NCBI RefSeq assembly: GCF_009914755.1
Contig: NC_060934.1
Reading direction: 5' to 3' (one strand)
Origin: the human T2T-CHM13v2.0 reference genome, Homo sapiens
Length of the DNA stretch: 64,000 nucleotides
How positions within the stretch are numbered: position 1 is the first letter of the stretch; the number at the start of each line of letters is the position of its first letter. The notes under the pieces were generated by a model, which was not told the DNA's origin, did no database searches, and was given only the letters and a program-made list of their open reading frames with translations. This document shows positions 7,478 to 32,726 of this stretch, piece after piece. The position numbers were made by a program, and so were the translations under genes.

Positions 7478-8042
7478 GGTGCAGTAGGCATTCACTAGCT
7501 GCTTCTGTAGCGTCGATCATCTCTCTTTCTCATTTCTATGGTGAAGTTCTCCTTCCCCTCTTTTCTTCTTGCCCTTTTACAGAGCATCCAGGTGGGATGA
7601 ACCCACCATCAATTCTATGGGTGGGCTCTGATTGGCATAAGCCAAACAACATGTCCTATTACTTTGGCCACAATGATTGGTTGGGCTAAGGTTGGTGCTT
7701 CAGGCATGAACCAATCAGTGCCTGGCATTCAAATCACCACCATGACTGGTTCAGACTCAAATAGCAACTGGAGATGGTAAGAGGTGAGGCTCCCTCTCCT
7801 CCTGGTTGGGAAAGAGGAAGTACATAACCCCAATAGCTGCCCGCAGCTATCAGGAGGCGCGTGGAACGTGACAGCAGTATGGGTAAGTGGAGCCAGCGTT
7901 GTCACCAAACCACACCTAATTTCTGCCTCTCTTCTGGACTCTTCAGTTATGTGAGTCATAAATACTCTTTATTATATTTGTATAAGTCATTTTGAATTGG
8001 AGTTTGTTATACTTTCACTCCAAAGTGTGTTATCTGATTACA
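7478..8042 (+). mobile_element. LTR16-type ERVL solo LTR
   Basis: Contains tgattgg...ggccacaatgattgg...ccaatcag and ctggactcttcagttatgtgagtcataaat. Confidence 0.6.
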
Positions 8043-8946
8043 AATAATTTCTTGTATTTTAGGCATGTACATCCTAAATATTGAAGTAGGTTTAAAAAAA
8101 CAAACTCACAAGAAACTTTAAAAAATCTAAATTATCCAGAGGGCTTCAAATATCCAGAGAACATTTGCAAACAAATTTGGATCTCTGACTTATGTGCAAA
8201 ATAATAATATAATAAAATAATAAAGTAAAATAAAATACCCATAGCCCGGGTGATTTGTTTGCTTCACATCTGAAGACAATCAAGATTGTGAGTTGGTAGT
8301 TTGGAGCCAGATGTAACAGATGCTCAATTGGCCCACAGCGTGCTGGTTTCAGATTGTCGTGTACAGTTGTCTTGGATTTTGTTGCTAAAAACACTGCTGT
8401 TTTTGCCAAACAATACTGTTTTGGGAGTTTGCCACCACAAACAGAGAGTTTGCTGTGATGAAGATTTGTTCTTTTTGTGGGACCGCAGAATACCATTAGA
8501 TTATAATAATGTGAGAGGGAAGACATCAGCCTGCCTGTGTTCAGTATATCACATGCTACTAACTAGATTTAAAAGCACAGTTTTATTCTCAATAGCTAGC
8601 AACCAAGAGTGAAGATAATAGTGATGTGATTGGGCTTTTAAAATGCATGGGAAGTTGTATTCTCTTGGAGTCTGTATGCGTCCAAGGACATTCCTTCCAT
8701 AGCCAATTTAATGTTCTGTGGGATCTTAGCCTATGCCGGAGAGAAGGCCAAAGCTAATCGAGAATCGTTGGGATGTAGCACAACAAAGCACAGCTTTTAC
8801 CCAGCTGGGGAGACAGGGTCTGCCGAGGAGTTAGCTCTCTAAGGAAGACATCCCATTATGTTTTCAGCTTCTTTATTCGCTTTGTTGGCCCAAACCTGGC
8901 AGCTTTCCGCTCTGTTCCTAGAACAAAATATTAAGGAAATAGATGT

Positions 8947-9165
8947 CACTTTGGGAGACCAAGGCGGGCAGATCACCTGAGGTCACGAGCTCGAGACCAG
9001 CCTGACCAACATGGTGAAACTCCGTCTCTACTAAAAATACAAAATAATAATAATAATAATTAGCTGGGCATGGTGGCAGGCGTCTATAGTCTGAGCCGAG
9101 ATTGTGCCACTGCACTCCAACCTGGGCAACACAGCGAGACTCCGTCAAAAAAAAAAACTAAAAAT
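8947..9165 (+). mobile_element. AluS, 5'-truncated with an internal right-arm deletion
   Basis: Jumps from ...ctatagtc straight to tgagccgagat. (AAT)n in the linker. Confidence 0.9.
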
Positions 9166-10098
9166 AAGTTGGCCTGAGAGTGGTAAAAATAAATAAAAAA
9201 CAGAAATGGATAGAAGTTTTTTTTTCCATTTTTATTTCTTTTAACATTAACTACTGTATCTGACATTTGGGACATGGATAGACATAAATCATACATTTAT
9301 TCCGTTAGGAATAAAATACATCTGGAACTCTATTAAAACTAATGAGGATGAAACTCACATTGACTGTGAGTATAAAAGCATCATAGGCAAGCACAGCCCA
9401 GGCTCTAGAGAGACTGTGCTCCCGAAGTCAGCTTTTATGGGTTGTATGGAACTTGGAGCACATCTCCTGATGTGAACAAGCACGGATGGTCACAAAGTCA
9501 GCCTGCTTGTTCAGAATGGTTTCAGTAGCAAAACAGTAAAACCCAAAGCCCAAACAGTGCATCAAGGTTGCTTCTGGGGGGAAATGGTTTGGACTTCACA
9601 CTTGCTTGCTGTTCGTCCCGGCTGCACTGAGCTTGGGAGTTCCTTGGCAGTTCCCCAGGAGCTTACTTAGAGCAGTGTTGGGGAGGCTGTTGATGAGTGG
9701 AAACAGACAAGGATTCAGGTGTGGAGGGAACTAGCACCAAGGGGGATGGGAGTGTGAGCCAGTCAGGGGATGAGAAAGTCTGTGGCTCCTAACAGCATAC
9801 GTTGTAAGGTCTCCGCTTGTGACTCATCTCCCTTTTAAAGATTCTTACCTTCAAGGGCAACATCAAAGAGGCAGACCTTGCCTCAGGTCGCTTCGTTGGC
9901 AAAGGAAGTGATGGAGTATGTATTCAACTCAAAGAATTGCAAAGGATGTCCAATGAATGTGAGCTTGGACTCTTTTGACAAAGTGAGCTTTAGAATTCTG
10001 ATTCTGGGGACGACCACAGAGTTTTGTGTAGTGGAATAATCCCACTTCTTATCAAAATATGAGCAGAATGTTTTATTTTTTATACATCTTAAGTTCCT

Positions 10099-10387
<289 letters not shown>

Positions 10388-10894
10388 CCTAAATTCAATT
10401 TCTATTTTACGAAGTACACCTTAATTTTTTTTATGAAAATCATAAGTACACTTCTGTATAATTTGAGCATGTCAGCAAAACACATTTAGAATGAAATCAA
10501 TTATATAAACATTTTTTTCTTGAGAGAGAGTACCTACCTTTTGATTAGCTCTTCAAAATGTTGATATCCCCAGAAAAGCCAAGATTCACTGTTCTACAAA
10601 GACTGAGAGTATAGGTGCATTTATAGTTAGAGAGTGATGGATGGTTTTTCAGAAGAGCCAGAGATTTTTCAGCAGCATCCATAATGATGATTTTGGGACA
10701 TACTCATTTGAAAGTACTAATGTCTCAATTTGTTTTAAGATGACAAAAGCAAAATTTAAATATGATACTTGTGAGGTTTCAATTGCATGATCTTGCAGTT
10801 TATTAAGGGGAATGTGGTTATAAATACATAATTATATTATAGGTATTAAAAGGTATATGAACATGTAAGTTATCAGAGCTGATAATAATTCCTG

Positions 10895-11211
<317 letters not shown>

Positions 11212-12087
11212 TGATTATTAAATGATTGTTTCTTGCTATGAGACTATGTCCAAGTGTTGTTAATGAAAAAGTATGGTGTGTGAGCTCTTTGAGACTGGGA
11301 GCTCTACCTTCCTTGTTCTTTGAATTTCCCTAAAGACCTACTGTCTTGGCCTCCATTTTTTTTTATATCTGCCATAATCTATTCCATAGTCAGGTAGCAT
11401 AAGTGCTTACTGTGGGTCTGGTTCTCTTGCTTGCTTTTTTGTCTTCTTCCTGCCTCCACATAATCATTATCTTACTGACTCTCGTCAGGTGTTTTTCCCT
11501 TTGTCAATATCCTCTGCTACTCCTCTAAATTCTCCTCTGATTTTTTTTTCTGATATTCTGTTGTAATCTTTGCTCAGTTAACCAGCTCTGCCTTGTCAAA
11601 GGCCTCCTTAAATTCCCCCACGCTCCAATGTCTTTGCTTGGCGAGAAAGACCAAGAGCATGAGCATTCAACAAGGATCCCCTGAACATGCTGTGGTTGGT
11701 GTCAGGCAATATGCTGGGTGCTGGGAATGAGACGCACAGTCTCTACCCTCCAGGAGTTAAAATCCAAGCAGGTTAAACAGTCTGGCAGGATCTCCCAGGA
11801 CCTTCTGTCACTTAGCAAGGAAGGAAAAGGGCTGTTGAAAATGAATAGTTTGGGTGCCACTCATTCTGCTGTATTTATCCCGTGATGTCCCTGGCGTTTG
11901 CATGGGTGCTAAATAAGCTGTTTCTCAGTCTTGTGTTACAGAAGAAGAACAAAACTACACAGTTGGTGACCATTTTACAAATAAATTCATTTTTAAAAGT
12001 CAGTCATCCTGAGAATATTCCAATTTCCCCCACCACTCCAAAAAAGCCCCAATCCTTTCCAACCACTTGAGGATGCATTAATCCTTT

Positions 12088-12613
12088 TTTTTTTTCATTT
12101 TTTTACTGTATTTTTAAAATTTTTAACTTTTATATTTAGTTCAGGGGTACAGGTGCATGTTCGTTACATAGGTAACCTTGTGTCATGGGGATTTGTCATA
12201 CATATTATTTCACCACCGAGGCATTAAGCCTAGTACCTGTTAGTTTTTTTTTATCCTCTCCCTCCCATCCTCCAACAGGCCCCAGCATGTGTTCCCCTCT
12301 GTGTCCACGTGTTCTCATCATTTAGTTCCCACTTATTAGTGAGAACATGTATTTGTTTCTCTGTTCCTGCTTTAGTTTGCTAAGGATAACAGCTCTGCAA
12401 AAGACATGATCTCATTGCTTTTTATGGCTACATAGTATTCCATAATGTCTATCCTAAGTGCCCCATTTTCTTTATCCAGTCTGTCATTGACGGGTATTTA
12501 GGTGGATTCCACGTCTTTGCTATTGTGAATAGCACTGCAATGAACATATGCATGCATGTGTCTTTATAATGGAATGATTTCTGTTCCTTTGGGTATATAC
12601 CCAGTAATGGGTT
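12088..12613 (-). mobile_element. Older L1PA 3' end, 5'-truncated
   Basis: L1PA 3' UTR and ORF2 end in antisense. TSD atgcattaatccttt (12073-12087) / atgcatcaatacttt (12614-12628). Confidence 0.9.
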
Positions 12614-13865
12614 ATGCATCAATACTTTGAGGAAGATTGCTTTGGACTTTATTTAATCCATCAGTCAGTCAACAAATGCTTACTGAGCACAGGTTGTTAG
12701 GTGCCAGGCACTGAGGACACAGCAGAGCCCAGGACAGATCCCGTGCCCTGAAGAATTTCCGGGTGTACAGTACATCACTGTGCCGTGATGTACTGTGGAG
12801 ACAGCAGATGGGGGATCTATTCCATCACTACCTGCCTCATTTCTTTTATGCCTGGTCTAATTTCCTTCAAGTCAGATAAGTACTATAAATAGCTGGTTTG
12901 GTTTGCTCAGCAGAACCAAACTTGAGCTCCTGATTTCAAAGCCCCTGGGATGTGGTGAGGTCCCTTCAAGTGGCTCCCTCAGTTGCCGGACAATGACCTG
13001 TCTGCGGTTGCTGCTGATTTCACTGACTGTGTGGGATCACTTTTCAATAGACAGCTGTAACCTTAACCACACCGCATTGAGTCACAACAATATCTTTTTT
13101 GCCAAATTCTTCAAGAGGGGCTGTCTCCCACTCATGTGTACTCCTGTGAAACTCATAAAGGTGGATATGATTCATCATATTGCTAAGGCTTTTTCCAGAA
13201 ATATCTGCATTCAATTTCTGTGAAAACAAAGGAAGCAAGCTTTCTCCTTCAAAAACATGGGATACAGGATTCAAAGCACTTAAAGGCAAACATCCCATCA
13301 GAATGAGGTTTTAACCATGTGAGATTCCATACTTCCCTTCACCCTATACAATCTCTACTTTGCTCCAATGCTTTGAGATCTGACACATGTTCCTCTATTC
13401 TCATTCAGGCCCCTAGACTAACATACCCTGGAGATGACAAAGGCTTTCTACAAATGACACTATTGGTCTTTCCAGTTCTTACCAACACAAGGAATGAATA
13501 CCATTCTGGCCAGAGTAGTGCTCCTATAGATTGGGGGCCCATCTGCACTCAGTTCTTTTAGCCATCCCTCTGGAGCCCAGATGAAGGATGACACACCTGT
13601 TGCTGAGTCCCAGTGCCTGTTGGTTACTCTCCAGTGCTTGGAGTGGTATTCTGGGCTGACGAGGGCACCCACTCAGTGCCAAGACTGATTGTTTGGTCAA
13701 CAGATGTCTGGGCCACCAAGATATCCTCACAGGGAGTCCTTTGGTCCCAAAACTTTGTGATGTTGTAGCTCTGGATAGCAGATAGATTGCTTAGGTGTGG
13801 CGACCCTGCCTTGAAATAAGAAGGCAGTCATGGGAAGTGGAGAGTGCAGAGGAGAGGATGGGGAG

Positions 13866-14282
13866 TGTGTTAGGCAATTGTTACATTGTTATAAAGAAAT
13901 ACCTGAGGCTGGGTAATTGATAAGGGAGGTTTATTTGGGTCATGGTTCTTCAGGGTGTACAGGAGGCAAGGTGTTGGCATCTGCTTCTGGTGAGGGCCTC
14001 AGGAACCTTCCAATCATGGTGGAAGGTGACAGGGAGCAGGTACATCACATGGTGAGAACGGAAGCAAGAGAAAGAGAAGGAGAGGGCCTCAGACTCTTCT
14101 AAACAAACAGATCTCAGGTGAATTGGGCAAGAACTCACTTACCACTAAGAGGGGATGGTGCCAAGCCATTCATGAGGGATTCACCCCCATGGTCCAATCA
14201 CCTCCCAGCAGGCCCCACCTCCAACAAGGGGAATAATATTTCACCATGTGATTTGGAGGGTACAAACATCTAAACCATGACA
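13866..14282 (-). mobile_element. MSTB-like MaLR solo LTR
   Basis: TG...CA ends, aagaaatacctgaggctgggtaatt, 5-bp TSD gggag. Confidence 0.9.
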
Positions 14283-14442
14283 GGGAGAGAGAGTGGCCCT
14301 AGGTATCAACCAAGGAGGCCACAGCCCAGGTACTTGGCCTGCGTCATGGCACTGCACCCGCTGACCACTGGGCCTATTTAAAACATTAAATGTGATCCAA
14401 AGAGGCTTTTGGTGGCCTTGTATCTGTCATGACATTTCAGCA

Positions 14443-14460
14443 TGCTGCCATCTAGTGGAC
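14443..14460 (-). promoter_or_regulatory. CTCF core motif (GTCCACTAGATGGCAGCA)
   Basis: Matches the CCASYAGRKGGCRS consensus. Occupancy cannot be seen from sequence. Confidence 0.55.
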
Positions 14461-15497
14461 GTGTCTGTGGACTGACTGACTAGTCAGAGGAATTTGGACC
14501 CCTGGATCATCATCTTCTCTATCAAATTGAGCAGTCAACACTGGGAACTTTGAAGTGAAATGTGATCTCCTTACTGGAAATTGTAGTAAAAGAAGGAAGT
14601 GGAGACAACAATGGACTATCTACGATCCAGTCTTCCACCCAAGCTCCCTAGGAAGATACTTTCATGGGTGGGATGTAGGTGGCTGGCACGTGATGTTAAC
14701 AATCCCCTTGTGCTTGGCTTGATTGCTGCTGGAATATCAGTTTTTCCTTGCTTTCCCTATAGGGAAATCTGCTAAAGAAGTTGAGTCTCTTCATCAACAT
14801 GTTCCCTGCTGTGGGTACTATTTCAAAGGGCTCAGTTTTCTCATGGTGTCCACTTCACCTCCTCCTGTCCCTCCACTCCCATTGCGATCAGAGCAGAACC
14901 TCACTTTCACTGGCATCTCTTCTTGTTCAGTTAGAAAGTCTTTATGAGCCAGTGGCCTGTTGATTAAAATCCAGTCAGAAGAGTAGTGATCCAAATCCTA
15001 TTGATCCCACCTCATTTAACTTAGTGAATTAAATACTTAGGAATACAGGGTGTATCTGGCTAGGTCAAGGTGACCAGAACAAGGTTATCTATGATTGATT
15101 ATATATTTTAAAATATTATCAATATCTAAGCTTAAACATATTCACTGTGACTCAATTCTCTTCCAACATAAATATTAATAATCCAAATAATATTCTTTGT
15201 GAAATAACCTGAATACAGACTAACATTTTTCCTTCTCTCCTGTTGTACCTCCTAAAGTGAAATGATCTTGAACAGAAGTGGAAGTCATTGCCCACTAGTC
15301 CTATGGCGAGGGTACATTTATCTCCCATTAATCTCTGTTTCACAACTGCCACCATGTCTATGAAGTTGGCCTTCTGCCTCCACAGATGTCCTAAGCCTAA
15401 AACACTTCCACAGATGACTTGGCTTCAGCTTCATGGACCACATAATATCAGAAATCAGCCATCATTTTGCCTCTCAATTTTGGAAAGCATTGTTCTA

Positions 15498-15668
15498 CAG
15501 TGAAGGCTTACTTACATCCTTGGCTGTGCCTCAGAATCACTTGAGTTTTAAAAATGTACATGTGCCATAATTTGACACCTGAATATTCTGATTCTGTAGA
15601 CTTAGGATGAGATCAATTGTCTGTAGTCTTAACTCCAGTGATTCGTTGTCAGAACAAACAGCCGACTG
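15498..15668. mobile_element. MER5-type hAT-Charlie MITE splitting the integrase remnant
   Basis: tcagaatcacttgag...ttctgattctgtaga. Integrase motifs resume immediately after it. Confidence 0.65.
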
Positions 15669-17249
15669 TTCTAGACCTTCCAAGTCTTGTTCCACATGTT
15701 CACTGCCTGTTGTGTATAGACCATTAGCCATATGGAATGGATCAATTCATACTCAAATGGTAACTCCAGAATAGCACCTCTTACTAAAAAAAAGACAAAT
15801 GCTCTATGTATTCCCAACAGAATTCAGTTGTGATGACACACCATAGTTCACTGGCCAGAACACTCCCTTTGGAATCCATTACTCTTCCACTTCTACTGGT
15901 CCTCCACCACCTCTGGCACCACTGTTACCCCAACAGCTGGTCAATATTAAGCTGTCGTCATATACATATAAGGAGTTCAGTAACTAGTGCTGGGCCCTGG
16001 GAGACTGGGGGGAGATTTGTGAGTCTGGGCTTGATTCCAGATACAACACACATTTTGCCCAAGCCAGCTGCTGGAAGACCAAAACTTCTGACTCTCCAAG
16101 GAAACAACAGATGCTATATTCCAGGTCTTTACACCCCAAGCATTCTACTCATGCTCATCCAAGACTCCAGACTCCCTTCTCTACCTTGAACCCTTATGTA
16201 CATGTTTGAAGAGGTTCTGGGAACATAGTGGCATTAAAATCAGCCACTGGGTCAAACAGCTAGGCGAAGAAACCCTTCTCCCACCTCAGAAATGTCCTGG
16301 GGCACATTAGGGCCTGCTCTGCATAAGCCTGGGGGAAGCAAAATCCCTCTCCTGTTGGTGGAAGGTGGTGTCTAAATTCAGTGAGCCCCTTGTATAATTC
16401 ATCCTACTAAAACCCAAGGGTGCAATTATCTTTAATAAAAGCTACTCACTGCAGCCATATTCTTTGACTTGGAGAATGTTCCCAGTCTCTGTGCCCACCC
16501 CCTGGTTCAAATCTTTTCACTTAACCGTGGTTTCCTTGGCTTCCAGCTGGTGGCCTCCCTCGCATCTGTATTTTCTCTCTCTCCCCGCAATCCTAGCCTG
16601 GGATTGCATTCCTGATCGGCCGTCCTACTGGGTTCTGATTTAAAGATGCTGCTTCCTGGGTCTCCAGTGGTCAAGTGACTTTTTCCCTTAACATCCTTTC
16701 CAGCCTCCTGGAGTAGAACATCATGGCTCAGGCCTAGTACCCATACTCCAATTTTTTGAGTAGGTTGGGGGGCTAGCCCCAAGGACTCAGTAAGAAAAAT
16801 TAATACCCCTTCCTGAATGTAGGGAAGGAAATGCAGAAGAACACTTAATCCCCGTGGGAGTCTTCCCTCCAATTCCCCAAGCTGTGACCACCAGTCCTGA
16901 GGTCTTTCTTAATTGCTGCATCATTTTAACTTACGATTTTTCATCTTCTTTCATCTGACCAGATTGTTAGCTCTCTGATGGCAACAATGTGCTACCTAAA
17001 CTTTGTTTCTTCGTAGTATCTGGTGTAATCTTTTACTTCAAATAGGGGATCAAATAAATATCAATACATATAGATGCTATGAAATAGGCAAACACATATC
17101 ACTAGTGCCTTCTCTACACAAAGATAGAGGTAAATGTGATGGGTTCAGGGGTTTCTGTGATTTTAGGTAAGATGTGCTGGTTGGGTATCAGAGGCTTCTA
17201 GAGGGAGTCAGTGACAGGGAGGGACTGCTCAGCCTCACAGGAGGGGGAG

Positions 17250-17605
17250 TGTATTAGTCTGTTTTCACACTGCTGATAAAGACATACCTGAGACTGGGTA
17301 ATTTAGAGAAAAAGAGGTTTAATGGACTTACAGTTCCACATGGCTAGGAGGTCTCACAATCATGGCAGAAGGCAAAACACACATCTTACATGGCAGAAAG
17401 CAAGAGAGGGAATGAGAACCGAGTGAAAGGGGTTTCCCCTTATAAAACCATCAGATCTCATGAGACTTGTTTACTACCATGAGAACAATATGGGGAAAAC
17501 TGCCCCTATGGTTCCATTATCTCCCAGCGGGTCCCTCCCGTGTGGGAATTATGGGAGCTACGATTCAAGATGAGACTTGAGTGGGGTCACAGCTAAAGGA
17601 TATCA
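17250..17605 (-). mobile_element. THE1B-like MaLR solo LTR
   Basis: tgtattagtctgttttcacactgctgataaagacatacc ... gatatca, TSD gggag. Confidence 0.93.
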
Positions 17606-18011
17606 GGGAGAGCATCTGACAAATGCAGTGGAAGGATTTCTTGAGAATGACTGAGTTCATATCCCAAATGAGAACCATACGCAATTTCCTATAGATTTTT
17701 CCAGATCTCCCCCTCAAAGCAATAAGGGGCATCTGCTGGATGGCTGTAATCATGTTCAGTTCTTCCTCATTCGTTAACCTGTGAGGGCATTCACCAGAGT
17801 GGGCTCAGACTCTTGCGTGTAATCTTTTTCCAGGCCCTGGGGTTTGTTCTGCACCAGCTGTGCTGTGACATCTTTTATTTACCCCCATCAAAGTCCACAG
17901 GACTAAGCACAGAAAGGAACTGGTCTTTTCTGATGTAATTGCTTTTACCACAGCCTATAAGTCATGAATCTTTACCTGTTGATTTTTAGGAAAAGATTTT
18001 TTTCCCAATGT

Positions 18012-18128
18012 GTTATGCAAAATGCTGGCTATATTCTCTTCAAATGAACGTTATGCAAAATGCTGGCTATATTCTCTTCAAATGAACGTTATACAAAATG
18101 CTGGCTATATTCTCTTCAAATGAACGTT
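18012..18128. repeat. Minisatellite, 38-bp unit x3
   Basis: gttatgcaaaatgctggctatattctcttcaaatgaac x3, one substitution. Confidence 0.97.
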
Positions 18129-18791
18129 GCCTCTTTCTGTCTTTCTCTACCTGTATGAACTTCTGCTTGGGTTCTCTTTGCAAGCTTTATTCTCTGTGGC
18201 CAAGAAGGATCTCTTTGCCCAGTGAACATATTGTGTGCAGTTGTTTCACACAGCTCTGGTGGGTGCAGCTGCTGCTTGCTTGCAGTCTGAATTGAAAATG
18301 GATTTTCCTCTATGCTGCTGTGACACTCCCTGTGGCCGGGAATGAAACAGTTCGAAGTATTCTCATCATCCACTCACTTGGGCTATGTGGCAGGCCTGGA
18401 GGAGGCGTGGTTAACAGGAGGATGAAGAGAAGGAGAGTTGCTGCTGCTGTTTGTAATTAGAGACTAAGGTTGTTTGATGATGAGGGTAAAGAGTACATAA
18501 GAAATATCTCTACAACCCATAATCAATTCAATGTGATCAAAACAATAAATATACATACAATAAATATACATACAATAAATATAATGTAATCACTGCAGAG
18601 CCAGTAATCATTTCTGAAGACAGGGTAGCAGGTGTGAGAGGACGTAGGAGGAGGTAGAGGGCAGGAAAGTTGGTGAGGAACTCAATGGGGCAGCTGGGTC
18701 TTATGGCGACATAATGTAACAGAAAGGAAATACCTGAGAATGAAAGGAATGAGAGAGGAAAGGTTAAGTACCTGGAACCTCAAAAGGATCT

Positions 18792-19088
18792 TTTATTTTT
18801 TTGAGATAAGGTCTCACTCTGTCACCCAGGCTTGAGTGCAGTGGTATGTTCATGGCTCACTACAGCCTCAACCTCCTGGGCTCAAGCAATCCTCCCACCT
18901 TAGCCTCCGAGTAGCTGGGACTACAATGATGCAACACCATGCCCCGCTAATTTTTTTTTTTTTTTTTTAGTAGAGATGGGGTCCTGCTATATGGCCCAGG
19001 CTGGTCTCAAACTCATGGGCTCAAGTGATCCTCCTGATTTGACCTCCCAATAGTGCTAGACTTTCAGGCATGAGCCACCATGCCTGGC
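18792..19088 (-). mobile_element. AluJ
   Basis: Antisense J-type dimer with a degenerate TSD tcaaaag(g/a)a(t/c)ct. Confidence 0.92.
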
Positions 19089-19585
19089 TAACCTTCAAAA
19101 GAACCTTGCCACCACTGCCAACACTCAGAAACTCTGAAAAGTTGGAAGCTGGCTCTGAGTTAATGAGCTGAGTTTGTAAGTCTTTTTGACAAGAGATCAA
19201 CTGCTATGCTCGCGGACTCGTGCGTTGCTCCGTCTTGGTTTCTTGACTTTGGCCTGAGCCCCAGCCCGTCCCTGTGGGTACAGGTTTTATGGACTGATCG
19301 ATCCATGTGACTGCTTATTTTCCTTCATACTTTCTACCACCATTTCATGGAGAACTCTGCTTGCTGCCAGCCTGTATGTATCTTCAGGGACTTGTGTGAC
19401 TTACTTTCTCCTGCAGTGCTATTATCAGAAGATTGTATCTTCTTTAGGTGATTTTTCCATATCAGGCAGCTCTATAAAAATGATAACAGTGGGTGTAAAG
19501 TAAGTTTTGCATGAAATCTTAAAAAATATTCTACCTAGTGGCATTATTTTTCATTTGCATTTGGAGGGGACTGAAGGCTGAGTGA

Positions 19586-20008
<423 letters not shown>

Positions 20009-20237
20009 TAAAGCCCAAAGCTCAATTTGTTTTTGGTTTGCTGCAGTTGCTGAAAAGAAACACTTTGTCTCCAGCAAAGACAGAAAGGAGGACTTTATAT
20101 AGCAGTAATGTGATCACAGATATTTGATGTGGCCTCCATAATGAGGCCAACAGTGAGAAGCAAAGACAGTTCTCTAGAGGAGGTCAAGGCAATAACAGGT
20201 AAATGAACGCTGTGCTAGATTCAAAAGATGGGATTTT

Positions 20238-20524
20238 GGTCTGGTGAGGTGGCTCATGCCACTAATCCCAGTACTTTTGGAGGATGAGGCAGGTAAAGTG
20301 CTTGAGCCCAGGAGTTTGAGAGCAGCCTGAGCAACATGGCAAAATCCCATCTCTACAAAAAATACTAAAATTAGCAGAGCACGGTGGTGCCTGCCTGTGG
20401 CCCCAGCTACTCAGGAGGCTGAGGCAGGAGGATCACCTAAGCCCCATACTGCCGTGGGCTGTGATTGTGCTACTGTACTCCAGCCTGGGCAACAGAGTGA
20501 GACCGTATCTCAAAAGAAAAAAAA
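20238..20524 (+). mobile_element. AluJ
   Basis: Dimer, TSD tgggatttt. Confidence 0.9.
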
Positions 20525-20769
20525 GTGGGATTTTGAATACATCTGGAATTATGGCTGAGTTGTCTCTTGTAATATAGGTGAGCCATTGAAATCAGAGGTC
20601 CTGGATTCTGAATAGGGCTGAGTTACATCTGTTCTCATGAAGTTCTGGACAGCAGCTGCTTGTGTGTGTGTGTGTGTAGCTTAGCTCTAAGACAGAGCTA
20701 GGTTATGAGAGCCTGTCTTATATTTTTTTCTTTTGGTGTTGAAAAATAAATAGTTTTGTGTGTGTGTGT

Positions 20770-21088
<319 letters not shown>

Positions 21089-26250: not shown

Positions 26251-27130
26251 GTAATTCATTCAACAAAGAATGTTCAAGTTCCTGGAGTGTGCCAGATACT
26301 AGGTGCTGGGGACACAGCAGCGGGTAGATCATAGCCTCTGCCCTCATAAGAATTACATTCTAGGGAGGAGAGACAAACAATAAAATAATGAACCATTCAA
26401 GGCAGAAAATGCCAAATAGTAAAAAGTGCCGTGGAGGAAAATAATACAAGGTAAAGGGGATGGCACATGCCTGGCCAGTATTTGTGGGTGGCAGTGGGTC
26501 GGGGGGAAGGGGGGCATGCTGTTGCTATTTTATTGAAAGTAGACAAGAAGGCATTGTGTAAAGAGCTGGAGAAAACGAGGGTCTTACTCACATAGGTGTC
26601 CTGAGGAGGAACATTTCAGACAGAAAGACCAAGAAGCATAGAGGCCATGCCTGGTGAATTCCTGGAGGAGCAAGTTGGGGATGTGAGTGGGGTTCAGGCA
26701 GAGCTGGGAGGGTAGGGAAGGCTGGTAGGAACGATCTGAGATGGGACTGCACAGTTGTGGATGCTTTTTGGCCATGAAAGGATGTTGTTGGTTTTTCTCT
26801 GAATGAGAAGGGAAGTCTTTGGGGGATGTTGAGTGGGGACATGACCTTGGCTTAAACTTTAATGCGATCAATGGGCTCCATTATTGAGCATAGACCCTAG
26901 GTACTCAAAGGAGTGTGGGGTACAGGGGTCTCATTAAAAAGCTACTGCAATAGATGAGGAAGAGGAGAGGGCTGGATGGTGGAGATGGGGAGAAGTGATT
27001 AGCATCTCCATGCACTTTGAAGACACAGCCAAAAGTATTTGCTGATGGACTGGATGAGGGATGAGAGAGAAGGGGAATGAAGATGGTGCCATGGTTTGTG
27101 GCTAGGCAACTGGAAGAGTGGAGTTGAGCT
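26251..27130 (-). mobile_element. L2 3' region
   Basis: attcattcaacaa...gtgccagatactaggtgctggggacacagcag followed by purine-rich L2 body. Confidence 0.8.

Positions 27131-31848: not shown

Positions 31849-32726
<878 letters not shown>

What the first reader, a model, noticed from the sequence alone, without database searches (positions are those of the whole stretch)
12780..16340. Near-complete Ty3/Gypsy (sushi/chromovirus-type) pol fossil in apparently unique intergenic DNA
Seen: manual frameshift-aware translation of the + strand gives pol motifs in Gypsy order (RT-RNase H-IN). RT palm/thumb at ~13170-13350: HHIAKAFSR...KQRKQAF...MGYRI...NEVLTM*DSILPFT, versus HVRxVLxR...KxEKCxF...LGYxI...KVxAIxDWPxPxT. 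Connection at 13409-13447: APRLTYPGDDKGF, versus APILxHPDxxKPF. RNase H at 13661-13795: EGTHSV, KTDCL, LWSQNF, ADRLLR, versus EGAxHPV, xTDH, RWAxFF, ADALSR. Integrase HHCC at 14324-14470: AQVLGLRHGTAPADH/GLFKTLNVIQRGFWWPCICHDI. Integrase core at 15426-15870: QLHGP/IISEISHHFASQFWKAL, FHMFTACCV*TISHMEWIN (versus LSTAYHPQTDGQTERVN), PTEFSCDD..GQNTPF. Established: Gypsy elements are extinct in mammals and survive mainly as domesticated SIRH/Mart genes (PEG10, RTL1) from the sushi-ichi lineage and as faint MamGyp-type relics. Inference: this is a non-domesticated copy of that lineage, older than the MER5 and MSTB insertions that interrupt it. It may already be annotated as MamGyp-int or MamGypsy2; I cannot check.
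Basis: partly seen in the sequence, partly recalled or inferred. Interest (0 to 1): 0.85.

Follow-up and report, generated by a model that had tools for sequence, protein, structure and literature searches.

The report
Decayed Gypsy-type integrase fossil

Summary
One is the integrase zinc finger (14306-14451, two frames). The other is the integrase core motif around the second catalytic Asp (15436-15495). Pfam gives Integrase_H2C2 at E 1.6e-5. A frameshift-aware alignment to profiles built from 33 and 144 natural Gypsy polyproteins gives 32-35 and 24-27 bits, against null means of 11-14 bits. None of 60 shuffles and none of 284 or 394 other window segments reach these scores. The two pieces match Gypsy integrases. 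They do not match 32 human integrase sequences: ERV1-type copies, NYNRIN and KRBA2. RT, RNase H, the rest of the core and the C-terminus are at null level. So "near-complete pol" and "sushi/chromovirus-type" are not shown. Both claimed insertions are real and carry target-site duplications: a MaLR solo LTR and a small MER5-like element. No LTRs and no DNA paralogues were found. A second Gypsy-type integrase relic lies on chrX. Gypsy relics in human DNA are already catalogued (MamGyp-int). Whether this copy is annotated could not be checked. Low interest.

The parts
14306..14368 (+). Integrase zinc finger, first half (His-x6-His), reading frame 2 (start coordinate mod 3 = 2)
   Evidence: It aligns to profile positions 774-794 of the 144-sequence Gypsy profile, with both His on the profile's His. 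The 33-sequence profile gives the same segment, 14312-14368.
14368..14451 (+). Integrase zinc finger, second half (GLFKTL...FWWP...), frame 1, joined to the first half by a one-base frameshift. The Cys pair is degenerate.
   Evidence: Pfam PF17921: E 1.6e-5, 25.4 bits. This segment alone scores 27.6 bits. ESM Atlas: 28 of 30 feature hits are PF17921 clusters, top score 0.96. It is the top hit among 3491 six-frame ORFs of the whole window.
15436..15495 (+). Integrase catalytic core around the second catalytic Asp (here Glu), with the F-x-S-x-F-W motif, frame 1
   Evidence: It scores 24.5 and 26.7 bits against null means of 11.5 and 11.7; 0 of 60 shuffles and 0 of 394 window segments reach it. 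It is the second-best ORF of 3491 in the window.
15675..15746 (+). Possible continuation of the core toward the catalytic Glu (weak, not demonstrated)
   Evidence: If the insertion and one duplication copy are taken out, this piece falls in the same frame and register as the piece before. The predicted diagonal scores only 6.4 bits and ranks about 155th of 3912 diagonals.
13866..14282 (+). Solo LTR of a MaLR-type element inserted just upstream of the zinc finger. The target-site duplication GGGAG lies at 13861-13865 and 14283-14287.
   Evidence: 40 other genomic copies were scored at 73-80% identity, all confined to this stretch. The termini TG...CA and the duplication are read. The family name comes from recall.
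15498..15666 (.). Small element with internal inverted repeats, inserted in the integrase core. The duplication TGTTCTA lies at 15491-15497 and 15667-15673.
Evidence: One search gives direct repeat D5 and inverted repeat I1 (14 nt, 93% complementary). One search shows the flanks. No other copies were found in the genome.
14452..15435 (+). Stretch between the two supported integrase pieces. It is 985 nt long where the profile expects about 273 nt, so about 710 nt are unexplained.
   Evidence: No repeat copies were found. A first-Asp motif is not above chance (47 of 100 shuffles as good).
13380..13865 (+). Claimed RNase H/connection (APRLTYPGDDKGF, KTD, ADRLLR): in the expected place and order, but not demonstrable
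   Evidence: 16.2 bits against 13.3+-1.7; 9 of 100 shuffles and 16 of 240 window segments are as good. With the larger profile it scores 12.3, and 55 of 100 shuffles are as good.
12780..13379 (+). Claimed reverse transcriptase: not supported
   Evidence: 15.3 bits against 15.2+-1.9; 23 of 60 shuffles are as good. 25 of 60 are as good. The RTL1-family profile gives 36 of 60 as good. There is no Pfam RVT hit.

Best explanation
The locus is a dead, neutrally decaying remnant of the integrase-coding end of the pol gene of a Ty3/Gypsy-type (Metaviridae) LTR retrotransposon. The element inserted into the ancestral genome before the two insertions in or beside the relic arrived. In the living element the N-terminal His2-Cys2 zinc finger and the DDE catalytic core would have joined the reverse-transcribed DNA to the chromosome. 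Here the frame is broken by stops and frameshifts, the second catalytic Asp reads Glu, and the Cys pair is degenerate. The core is split by a small element. The longest stop-to-stop frame over the finding is 133 codons. Nothing suggests present function.

Shown: the two integrase pieces, their Gypsy-like rather than ERV1-like character, and the two insertions with their duplications.

Inferred: that the integrase belonged to a retrotransposon and not to a Gypsy-like DNA transposon. Also inferred: that RT and RNase H once lay upstream and have decayed beyond detection or were deleted.
For: - Pfam PF17921: E 1.6e-5 for ORF 14365-14472, the only pol family among 69 + strand ORFs. There is none among 60 - strand ORFs.
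- Atlas: 28 of 30 feature hits are PF17921 clusters.
- An HMM of 33 natural Gypsy polyproteins ranks the two pieces first and second of 3491 window ORFs, colinear in the profile.
- The frameshift-aware chain scores 42.1. 150 shuffles give 21.0+-2.7 (max 28.9), 28 other window segments reach at most 27.6, the reverse strand gives 18.4 and the reversed profile 21.5. The real score is highest under all 4 parameter sets tried.
- The sub-tests replicate with a second profile of 144 sequences.
- Pairwise: 22 of 33 Gypsy references score 43-58.5 bits summed over the two pieces. Seven human ERV1-type integrase ORFs and NYNRIN score 27-32, the same as references without an integrase. 24 further human integrase sequences, including KRBA2, score 11.5-20 per piece. 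Their core motif reads SDNGPAF, against SEISHHF...FW here.
- A second relic on chrX shows RNase H followed by integrase, so such retrotransposon relics exist in this genome.
- Kojima 2018 (PMC5753468, passages read) lists Gypsy relics in human DNA (MamGyp-int and LTRs). It states that Ginger1 left no repeats there.
Against: - The Pfam score lies 0.1 bit under the curated cut-off.
- Single-sequence searches fail. tblastn with 33 references gives E 0.05 at best in the region, and noise elsewhere is equal or better. PDB phmmer finds nothing related. The 1.84-billion-protein library returns only two repetitive proteins.
- The first-Asp and Glu parts of the core, the C-terminus, RT and RNase H are all at null level.
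- About 710 nt between the two pieces are unexplained.
- No LTR pair was found. No DNA paralogue was found.
- The GIN1 zinc-finger exon also matches the window's zinc finger: 24.5 bits against shuffles of 11.6+-1.8. The zinc finger alone therefore does not exclude a Ginger-type source.
Confidence: 0.75

Rival explanations
1. One reading: a near-complete, colinear RT-RNase H-integrase fossil of the sushi/chromovirus lineage spans 12780-16340.
For: - The quoted motifs lie in the expected order.
- From 13400 to 13804 the DNA covers 135 codons for 136 profile positions.
- The RNase H part is borderline with one profile: 9 of 100 shuffles and 9-16 of 240 window segments are as good.
Against: - That low-penalty alignment scores 28.5 against a null of 26.0+-4.1; 15 of 60 shuffles are as good.
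- RT is at null level in three profiles.
- RNase H falls to null with the larger profile: 55 of 100 and 94 of 100 shuffles are as good.
- The C-terminus and chromodomain region is at null level.
- The RTL1-family (sushi-derived) profile gives nothing.
- No Pfam RVT, RNase H or rve hit appears in whole frames, ORFs or 120-aa tiles.
Confidence: 0.25
2. The integrase pieces come from a Gypsy-like integrase that was not part of a retrotransposon: a Ginger-type DNA transposon, or an old duplicate or retrocopy of a domesticated integrase gene such as GIN1.
For: - The GIN1 zinc-finger exon matches the window's zinc finger: 24.5 bits against 11.6+-1.8, max 17.5 in 100 shuffles.
- No RT or RNase H is demonstrable upstream.
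- No LTRs were found.
Against: - The GIN1 core exon does not match the window's core piece: 13.0 against 12.9+-2.1, with 43 of 100 shuffles as good. That exon ends before the F-x-S-x-F-W part, so the test is partial.
- NYNRIN and KRBA2 score at noise level.
- Kojima 2018 (PMC5753468, passage read) reports no Ginger1 repeats in human DNA but does report Gypsy relics.
- The similar chrX relic has RNase H upstream of its integrase.
Confidence: 0.1
3. The pieces are the remains of an endogenous retrovirus integrase (class I, II or III ERV), not of a Gypsy element.
For: - PF17921 also matches hundreds of human ERV copies: 150 of 150 scored hits are over the cut-off.
- Human ERV integrases are homologous to a Gypsy integrase at E down to 4e-19.
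- Retroviruses have the same domain order.
Against: - 30 human ERV1-type integrase sequences, many with long open frames, score only 11.5-20 bits per piece. This is the level of references that lack an integrase.
- Their core motif differs.
- Class II and class III ERV integrases were not tested as such.
Confidence: 0.05
4. Chance: the matches are what three-frame motif hunting finds in any DNA.
For: They are no better than shuffled or unrelated DNA.
Against: The two integrase pieces exceed every one of 60-150 shuffles and 28-394 natural control segments under two profiles. Pfam and the Atlas find them independently.
Confidence: 0.03

Closest known systems
MamGyp-int and associated MamGypLTR families (Repbase/Dfam mammalian Gypsy relics)
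   Same: Ancient, non-domesticated Gypsy remains in human DNA. Kojima 2018 lists them (PMC5753468, Table 4 passage read). A PNMA2 preprint calls MamGyp-int a Ty3/mdg4 element (10.1101/2023.02.09.527862, passage read).
   Different: Membership is defined by nucleotide similarity to a consensus that is not available here. No DNA paralogue of this locus was found in the genome. The locus may be an annotated copy, an unannotated copy or another lineage.
Ty3/Gypsy integrase (Pfam Integrase_H2C2 PF17921 plus rve PF00665)
   Same: His-x6-His zinc-finger register, the ...WP... stretch after it, and the S-D/E...F-x-S-x-F-W core motif.
   Different: The Cys pair is degenerate and the second Asp reads Glu. 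The first Asp and the Glu are not demonstrable. The frame is broken. There is no Pfam rve hit.
RTL1/PEG10 (sushi-ichi-derived domesticated genes)
   Same: Both descend from Gypsy-type elements. Human RTL1 keeps RVT_1 and RT_RNaseH_2 signatures.
   Different: RTL1 is an intact 1358-codon gene without an integrase. Its family profile finds nothing in the window. No evidence ties this relic to the sushi lineage.
GIN1 (Gypsy integrase-like gene)
   Same: Its zinc-finger exon is significantly similar to the window's zinc finger.
   Different: GIN1 is an intact multi-exon gene. Its core exon does not match the window's core piece.
Human ERV1-type integrases
   Same: Same Pfam zinc-finger family and same overall fold family.
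   Different: Pairwise scores to the window's pieces are at background, and the core motif differs.

Membership tests
Ty3/Gypsy (Metaviridae) pol | Integrase N-terminal His2-Cys2 zinc finger of the PF17921 type | tested here: met
   Pfam E 1.6e-5, 25.4 bits against a cut-off of 25.5. 31.9 and 35.3 bits against nulls of about 13. Both His are in register. The Cys pair is degenerate.
Ty3/Gypsy (Metaviridae) pol | DDE catalytic core with a Gypsy-type motif at the second Asp | tested here: inconclusive
   The second-Asp region is significant at 24.5 and 26.7 bits, with Asp read as Glu. The first-Asp region is at null (47 of 100 shuffles as good). The Glu region scores only 6.4 bits on the predicted diagonal. 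There is no Pfam rve hit.
Ty3/Gypsy (Metaviridae) pol | Reverse transcriptase upstream | tested here: not met
   Null level with three profiles. No Pfam RVT_1 hit. Decay beyond detection is not excluded.
Ty3/Gypsy (Metaviridae) pol | RNase H between RT and integrase | tested here: inconclusive
   9 of 100 shuffles are as good with the 33-sequence profile. 55 of 100 are as good with the 144-sequence profile.
Ty3/Gypsy (Metaviridae) pol | Flanking LTRs, gag and protease | tested here: not met
   Direct repeats in 8000-21000 are only Alu-like families. No gag or protease ORF hit appears in the window-wide HMM scan.
Chromovirus / sushi lineage | Chromodomain at the integrase C-terminus; affinity to sushi-derived genes | tested here: not met
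   15674-16400 against the C-terminal part of the profile, including the chromodomain: 43 of 60 and 41 of 60 shuffles are as good. The RTL1-family profile gives no signal.
MamGyp-int (Repbase/Dfam) | Nucleotide similarity to the family consensus or model | not testable with these tools
   No Dfam or Repbase library is held here. The genome DNA search finds only the locus itself.
ERV1-type endogenous retrovirus integrase | Sequence affinity to ERV1 integrases, SDNGPAF-type core motif | tested here: not met
   30 human ERV1-type integrase sequences score 11.5-20 bits per piece, which is background.
Ginger-type transposase / GIN1 | Integrase without RT or RNase H; affinity to GIN1 | tested here: inconclusive
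   The zinc finger matches the GIN1 exon. The core exon does not match (partial coverage). No Ginger transposase sequences were available.

The most novel reading that the evidence does not exclude
The chr10 relic, perhaps together with the chrX relic, could represent a very old mammalian Gypsy lineage that current repeat libraries do not cover. That lineage would be distinct from both MamGyp-int and the sushi lineage. It would add a data point on when and how many Metaviridae lineages died out in mammals.
Probability: 0.15. Interest if true: 0.35.

Novelty: new member of a known kind. Interest (0 to 1): 0.15.

Why it matters
It matters little for biology. It is one more non-functional Gypsy fossil in a genome where such fossils are already catalogued. 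It lies in an intron of a predicted lncRNA and has no open frame of note.

It has some use as a dating marker. The element predates a MaLR LTR and a small transposon that inserted into or beside it.

It is also a caution on method. Of five domain-level motif sets found by eye across three frames, only the integrase zinc finger and one integrase core motif survive controls.

Tried and rejected
- Whole-frame, per-ORF and 120-aa tiled Pfam scans found nothing beyond PF17921. In one search I generated 124 tiles but sent only the 62 + strand tiles. The - strand was covered by ORFs.
- The word-indexed protein search with the 65-aa piece found no candidates.
- PDB phmmer with two read-through tiles gave only unrelated weak hits, E 1.1-3.1.
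- The one search of the 1.84-billion-protein library returned two repetitive proteins of no relevance.
- tblastn of 33 Gypsy polyproteins against the window was not significant. The best E, 0.026, lies elsewhere in the window, and the zinc finger gets E 0.05-0.06.
- A genome-wide search with part of a natural Gypsy integrase was swamped by ERV integrases (1722 candidates, 144 scored). The window was not among them.
- DNA comparison of the chr10 and chrX relics showed only a shared L1-like flank and a 24-nt match. A common family is therefore not shown.
- Pfam did not recognise the chrX piece.
- Neither of two candidate first-Asp sites is above chance.
- The search for GIN1's next core exon failed within the 10 kb I could fetch.
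- The earlier-findings tool was not open.
Full report
**Setting.** The window is human T2T-CHM13 chr10:15,748,001-15,812,000. The finding lies in intron 1 of a predicted lncRNA, according to the hub's annotation. The longest stop-to-stop frame overlapping 12500-16700 is 133 codons. Nothing here looks like a live gene.

The real question is whether the strings exceed what three-frame motif hunting finds in any DNA.

**Library searches.**
- Pfam on the three + and three - frames read through stops gave one family only: Integrase_H2C2 (PF17921), E 0.0026.
- Scanned as separate stop-to-stop ORFs, the 36-codon ORF 14365-14472 gave E 1.6e-5 and 25.4 bits, against a curated cut-off of 25.5. It was the only pol-related hit among 69 + strand ORFs.
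- 60 - strand ORFs gave no pol family; the best E there was 0.055, to an unrelated family.
- 62 overlapping 120-aa + strand tiles repeated only that hit, at E 1.6e-4.
- No RVT_1, RT_RNaseH or rve match appeared in any of these scans.
- The ESM Atlas placed the ORF among PF17921 clusters: 28 of 30 feature hits, top score 0.96.
- PDB phmmer found nothing related. The word-indexed protein search found nothing. The 1.84-billion-protein library returned only two repetitive proteins.

**Repeats and insertions.**
- A genome DNA search with 12780-16340 returned the locus itself plus 40 other places. All 40 are confined to window 13857-14291, at 73-80% identity.
- That stretch begins TG and ends CA, and GGGAG flanks it on both sides (13861-13865 and 14283-14287). 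It is a solo LTR of a MaLR-type family. The family name comes from recall.
- The three remaining parts of the finding matched only themselves.
- The stretch 15498-15666 is flanked by TGTTCTA (15491-15497 and 15667-15673). It has a 14-nt internal inverted repeat. It is a small inserted element.

**Natural references.** PF17921 also matches hundreds of human ERV copies: 990 candidates, 150 scored, all over the cut-off. The zinc finger alone therefore cannot separate Gypsy from ERV. I located human RTL1. It keeps RVT_1 and RT_RNaseH_2 signatures. I used its RT-RNase H region to fetch proteins. Beside the RTL1 orthologues this returned 33 natural Gypsy polyproteins (P0090-P0122). Most of them carry RVT_1, RNase H, H2C2, rve and a chromodomain. 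A second search from P0090 added fungal-type chromoviral polyproteins. Of these, 111 under 1600 aa went into the second profile with the first 33, making 144.

**Window-wide scan.** An HMM of the 33 polyproteins was run without filters over all 3491 six-frame ORFs of the 64-kb window. It ranked +14365-14472 first (profile 785-809) and +15418-15567 second (profile 902-925). No other ORF had E below 10. Single-sequence tblastn was not significant.

**Frameshift-aware alignment.** I wrote a profile-to-DNA alignment that allows frameshifts and jumps.
- For 12600-16600 on the + strand the chain scored 42.1. In comparison, 150 dinucleotide shuffles gave 21.0+-2.7 (max 28.9). Twenty-eight other window segments on both strands reached at most 27.6. 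The reverse strand gave 18.4 and the reversed profile 21.5.
- The real region was highest under all four parameter sets tried.
- Three segments carry the score:
  - 14312-14368 (frame 2), with His-x6-His in register;
  - 14368-14451 (frame 1, 27.6 bits);
  - 15436-15495 (frame 1, 24.5 bits), aligned to the profile's ...SDR...F-x-S-x-F-W... stretch with Glu in place of the catalytic Asp.

**Sub-tests by domain, with two profiles (33 and 144 sequences).**

| Region | Profile 1 | Profile 2 |
|---|---|---|
| Zinc finger | 31.9 vs null 13.2+-1.7 (0/60 shuffles, 0/284 segments) | 35.3 vs null 13.4+-1.9 (0/60, 0/284) |
| Second-Asp core piece | 24.5 vs null 11.5+-1.5 (0/60, 0/394) | 26.7 vs null 11.7+-1.6 (0/60, 0/394) |
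| First-Asp region | 47/100 shuffles as good | not run |
| 15674-16400, rest of core and C-terminus incl. chromodomain | 43/60 as good | 41/60 as good |
| RNase H, 13380-13865 | 16.2 vs 13.3+-1.7 (9/100 shuffles, 16/240 segments as good) | 12.3 (55/100 as good) |
| RT, 12780-13400 | 23/60 as good | 25/60 as good |

- RT and RNase H together scored no better than null, both as a chain (6-30 of 100 shuffles as good) and as a gapped alignment (6-15 of 60).
- A profile of 76 RTL1 orthologues also found nothing (36/60 and 56/60 as good).
From 13400 to 13804 the DNA covers 135 codons for 136 profile positions. Its score is ordinary for random DNA, so I treat it as compatible but undemonstrated.

**The piece after the small insertion.** If the insertion and one duplication copy are taken out, the right flank falls in the same frame and register as the core piece before it. 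The catalytic Glu then lies 35 residues after the position of the second Asp. I checked this by coordinates, without making a joined sequence. The predicted diagonal scores only 6.4 bits and ranks about 155th of 3912. That is mild support at best.

**Gypsy or ERV?** I scored the two supported pieces pairwise (BLOSUM62, frameshift-aware).
- 22 of 33 Gypsy references score 43-58.5 bits summed over the two pieces.
- Seven human ERV1-type integrase ORFs and NYNRIN score 27-32 bits. That is the level of RTL1 and other references without an integrase.
- For calibration, three Gypsy references gave shuffle nulls of about 16-17+-2 per piece. Real values were 29.5-33.5 for the zinc finger and 23-29 for the core.
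- The 12 human integrase stretches that best match a natural Gypsy integrase scored 12-20 per piece.
- 12 more, including KRBA2 (identification of that locus is from recall), scored 11.5-18.5.
- The core motif of the ERV stretches reads SDNGPAF.
- ERV class II and class III integrases were not tested as such.

**Gypsy or a Gypsy-like integrase of another source?** The GIN1 zinc-finger exon matches the window's zinc finger: 24.5 bits against 11.6+-1.8. The GIN1 core exon does not match the window's core piece: 13.0 against 12.9+-2.1. That exon ends before the F-x-S-x-F-W part, and I could not find or fetch the next exon. This rival stays open at low probability. Kojima 2018 (PMC5753468, passages read) reports Gypsy relics in human DNA: MamGyp-int, MamGypLTR1-3, LTR85/88/104. 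It reports no Ginger1 repeats.

**A second relic.** The best non-self match of the window's zinc finger in the genome is on chrX (14 of 23 residues, E 0.27). The match is reciprocal (E 1.5). That locus aligns without gaps over 62 residues to the Gypsy profile, from the zinc finger to the first catalytic Asp. It scores 37 bits against 18.4+-1.4. Upstream it has an RNase H N-terminal relic: 24.1 against 18.7+-1.8, 0 of 40 shuffles as good with one profile and 2 of 40 with the other. So Gypsy pol relics with RNase H followed by integrase do exist in this genome. The two loci share no DNA similarity beyond 24 nt. A natural Gypsy reference is as close to the window's zinc finger as the chrX copy is. 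A common family is therefore not shown.

**What is missing or unexplained.**
- No LTR pair was found; direct repeats in 8000-21000 are Alu-like only.
- No gag or protease was found.
- About 710 nt lie between the two integrase pieces beyond what the profile expects, and no recognisable repeat accounts for them.

**Verdict.** This is a real but small and heavily decayed integrase relic of a Gypsy-type element, older than the two insertions in and beside it. Its extent ('near-complete pol') and its lineage ('sushi/chromovirus') are not supported. The kind is already known from repeat libraries. Whether this copy is annotated needs Dfam, which I could not consult. Supplements of the papers cited were not opened and are unlikely to bear on this locus.

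Noticed in passing
G000:C23:109381772-109381957 (minus strand; loci L024, L035); upstream piece C23:109382819-109382999 (L036): A second Gypsy-type integrase relic on chrX. It aligns gaplessly over 62 aa from the zinc finger to the first catalytic Asp. An RNase H N-terminal relic lies upstream, and a MaLR-type LTR cuts that relic. Pfam does not recognise the integrase piece.
   Followed up: partly
window 14452-15435: About 710 nt more than a Gypsy integrase should have between the zinc finger and the second-Asp motif. No repeat copies and no clear insertion boundaries were found.
   Followed up: partly
window 12120-12611: A repeat fragment just upstream of the finding matches two places in the chrX locus at 71-72% identity. 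The - strand ORF at 12449-12652 reads like the end of LINE-1 ORF2 (recall).
   Followed up: no
window 18012-18128: Three tandem copies of a 38-bp unit, 98-100% identical (family D7).
   Followed up: no
window 10098-11210 and 18788-21000: Clusters of Alu-like repeats on both sides of the finding. They are the only direct repeats found around it.
   Followed up: no
G000:C14:18615093-18615263 (L001): The best PF17921 match in the genome lies in a 1000-codon open frame. I take it to be the integrase-derived part of NYNRIN (recall). It scores at background against the window's relic.
   Followed up: partly
window 26498-26725 (- strand) and 32165-32380 (+ strand): Several Gypsy polyprotein N-terminal regions give weak tblastn hits here (E 0.026-1). 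These are most likely compositional noise. They show how easily single-sequence searches produce E near 0.05 in this window.
   Followed up: no
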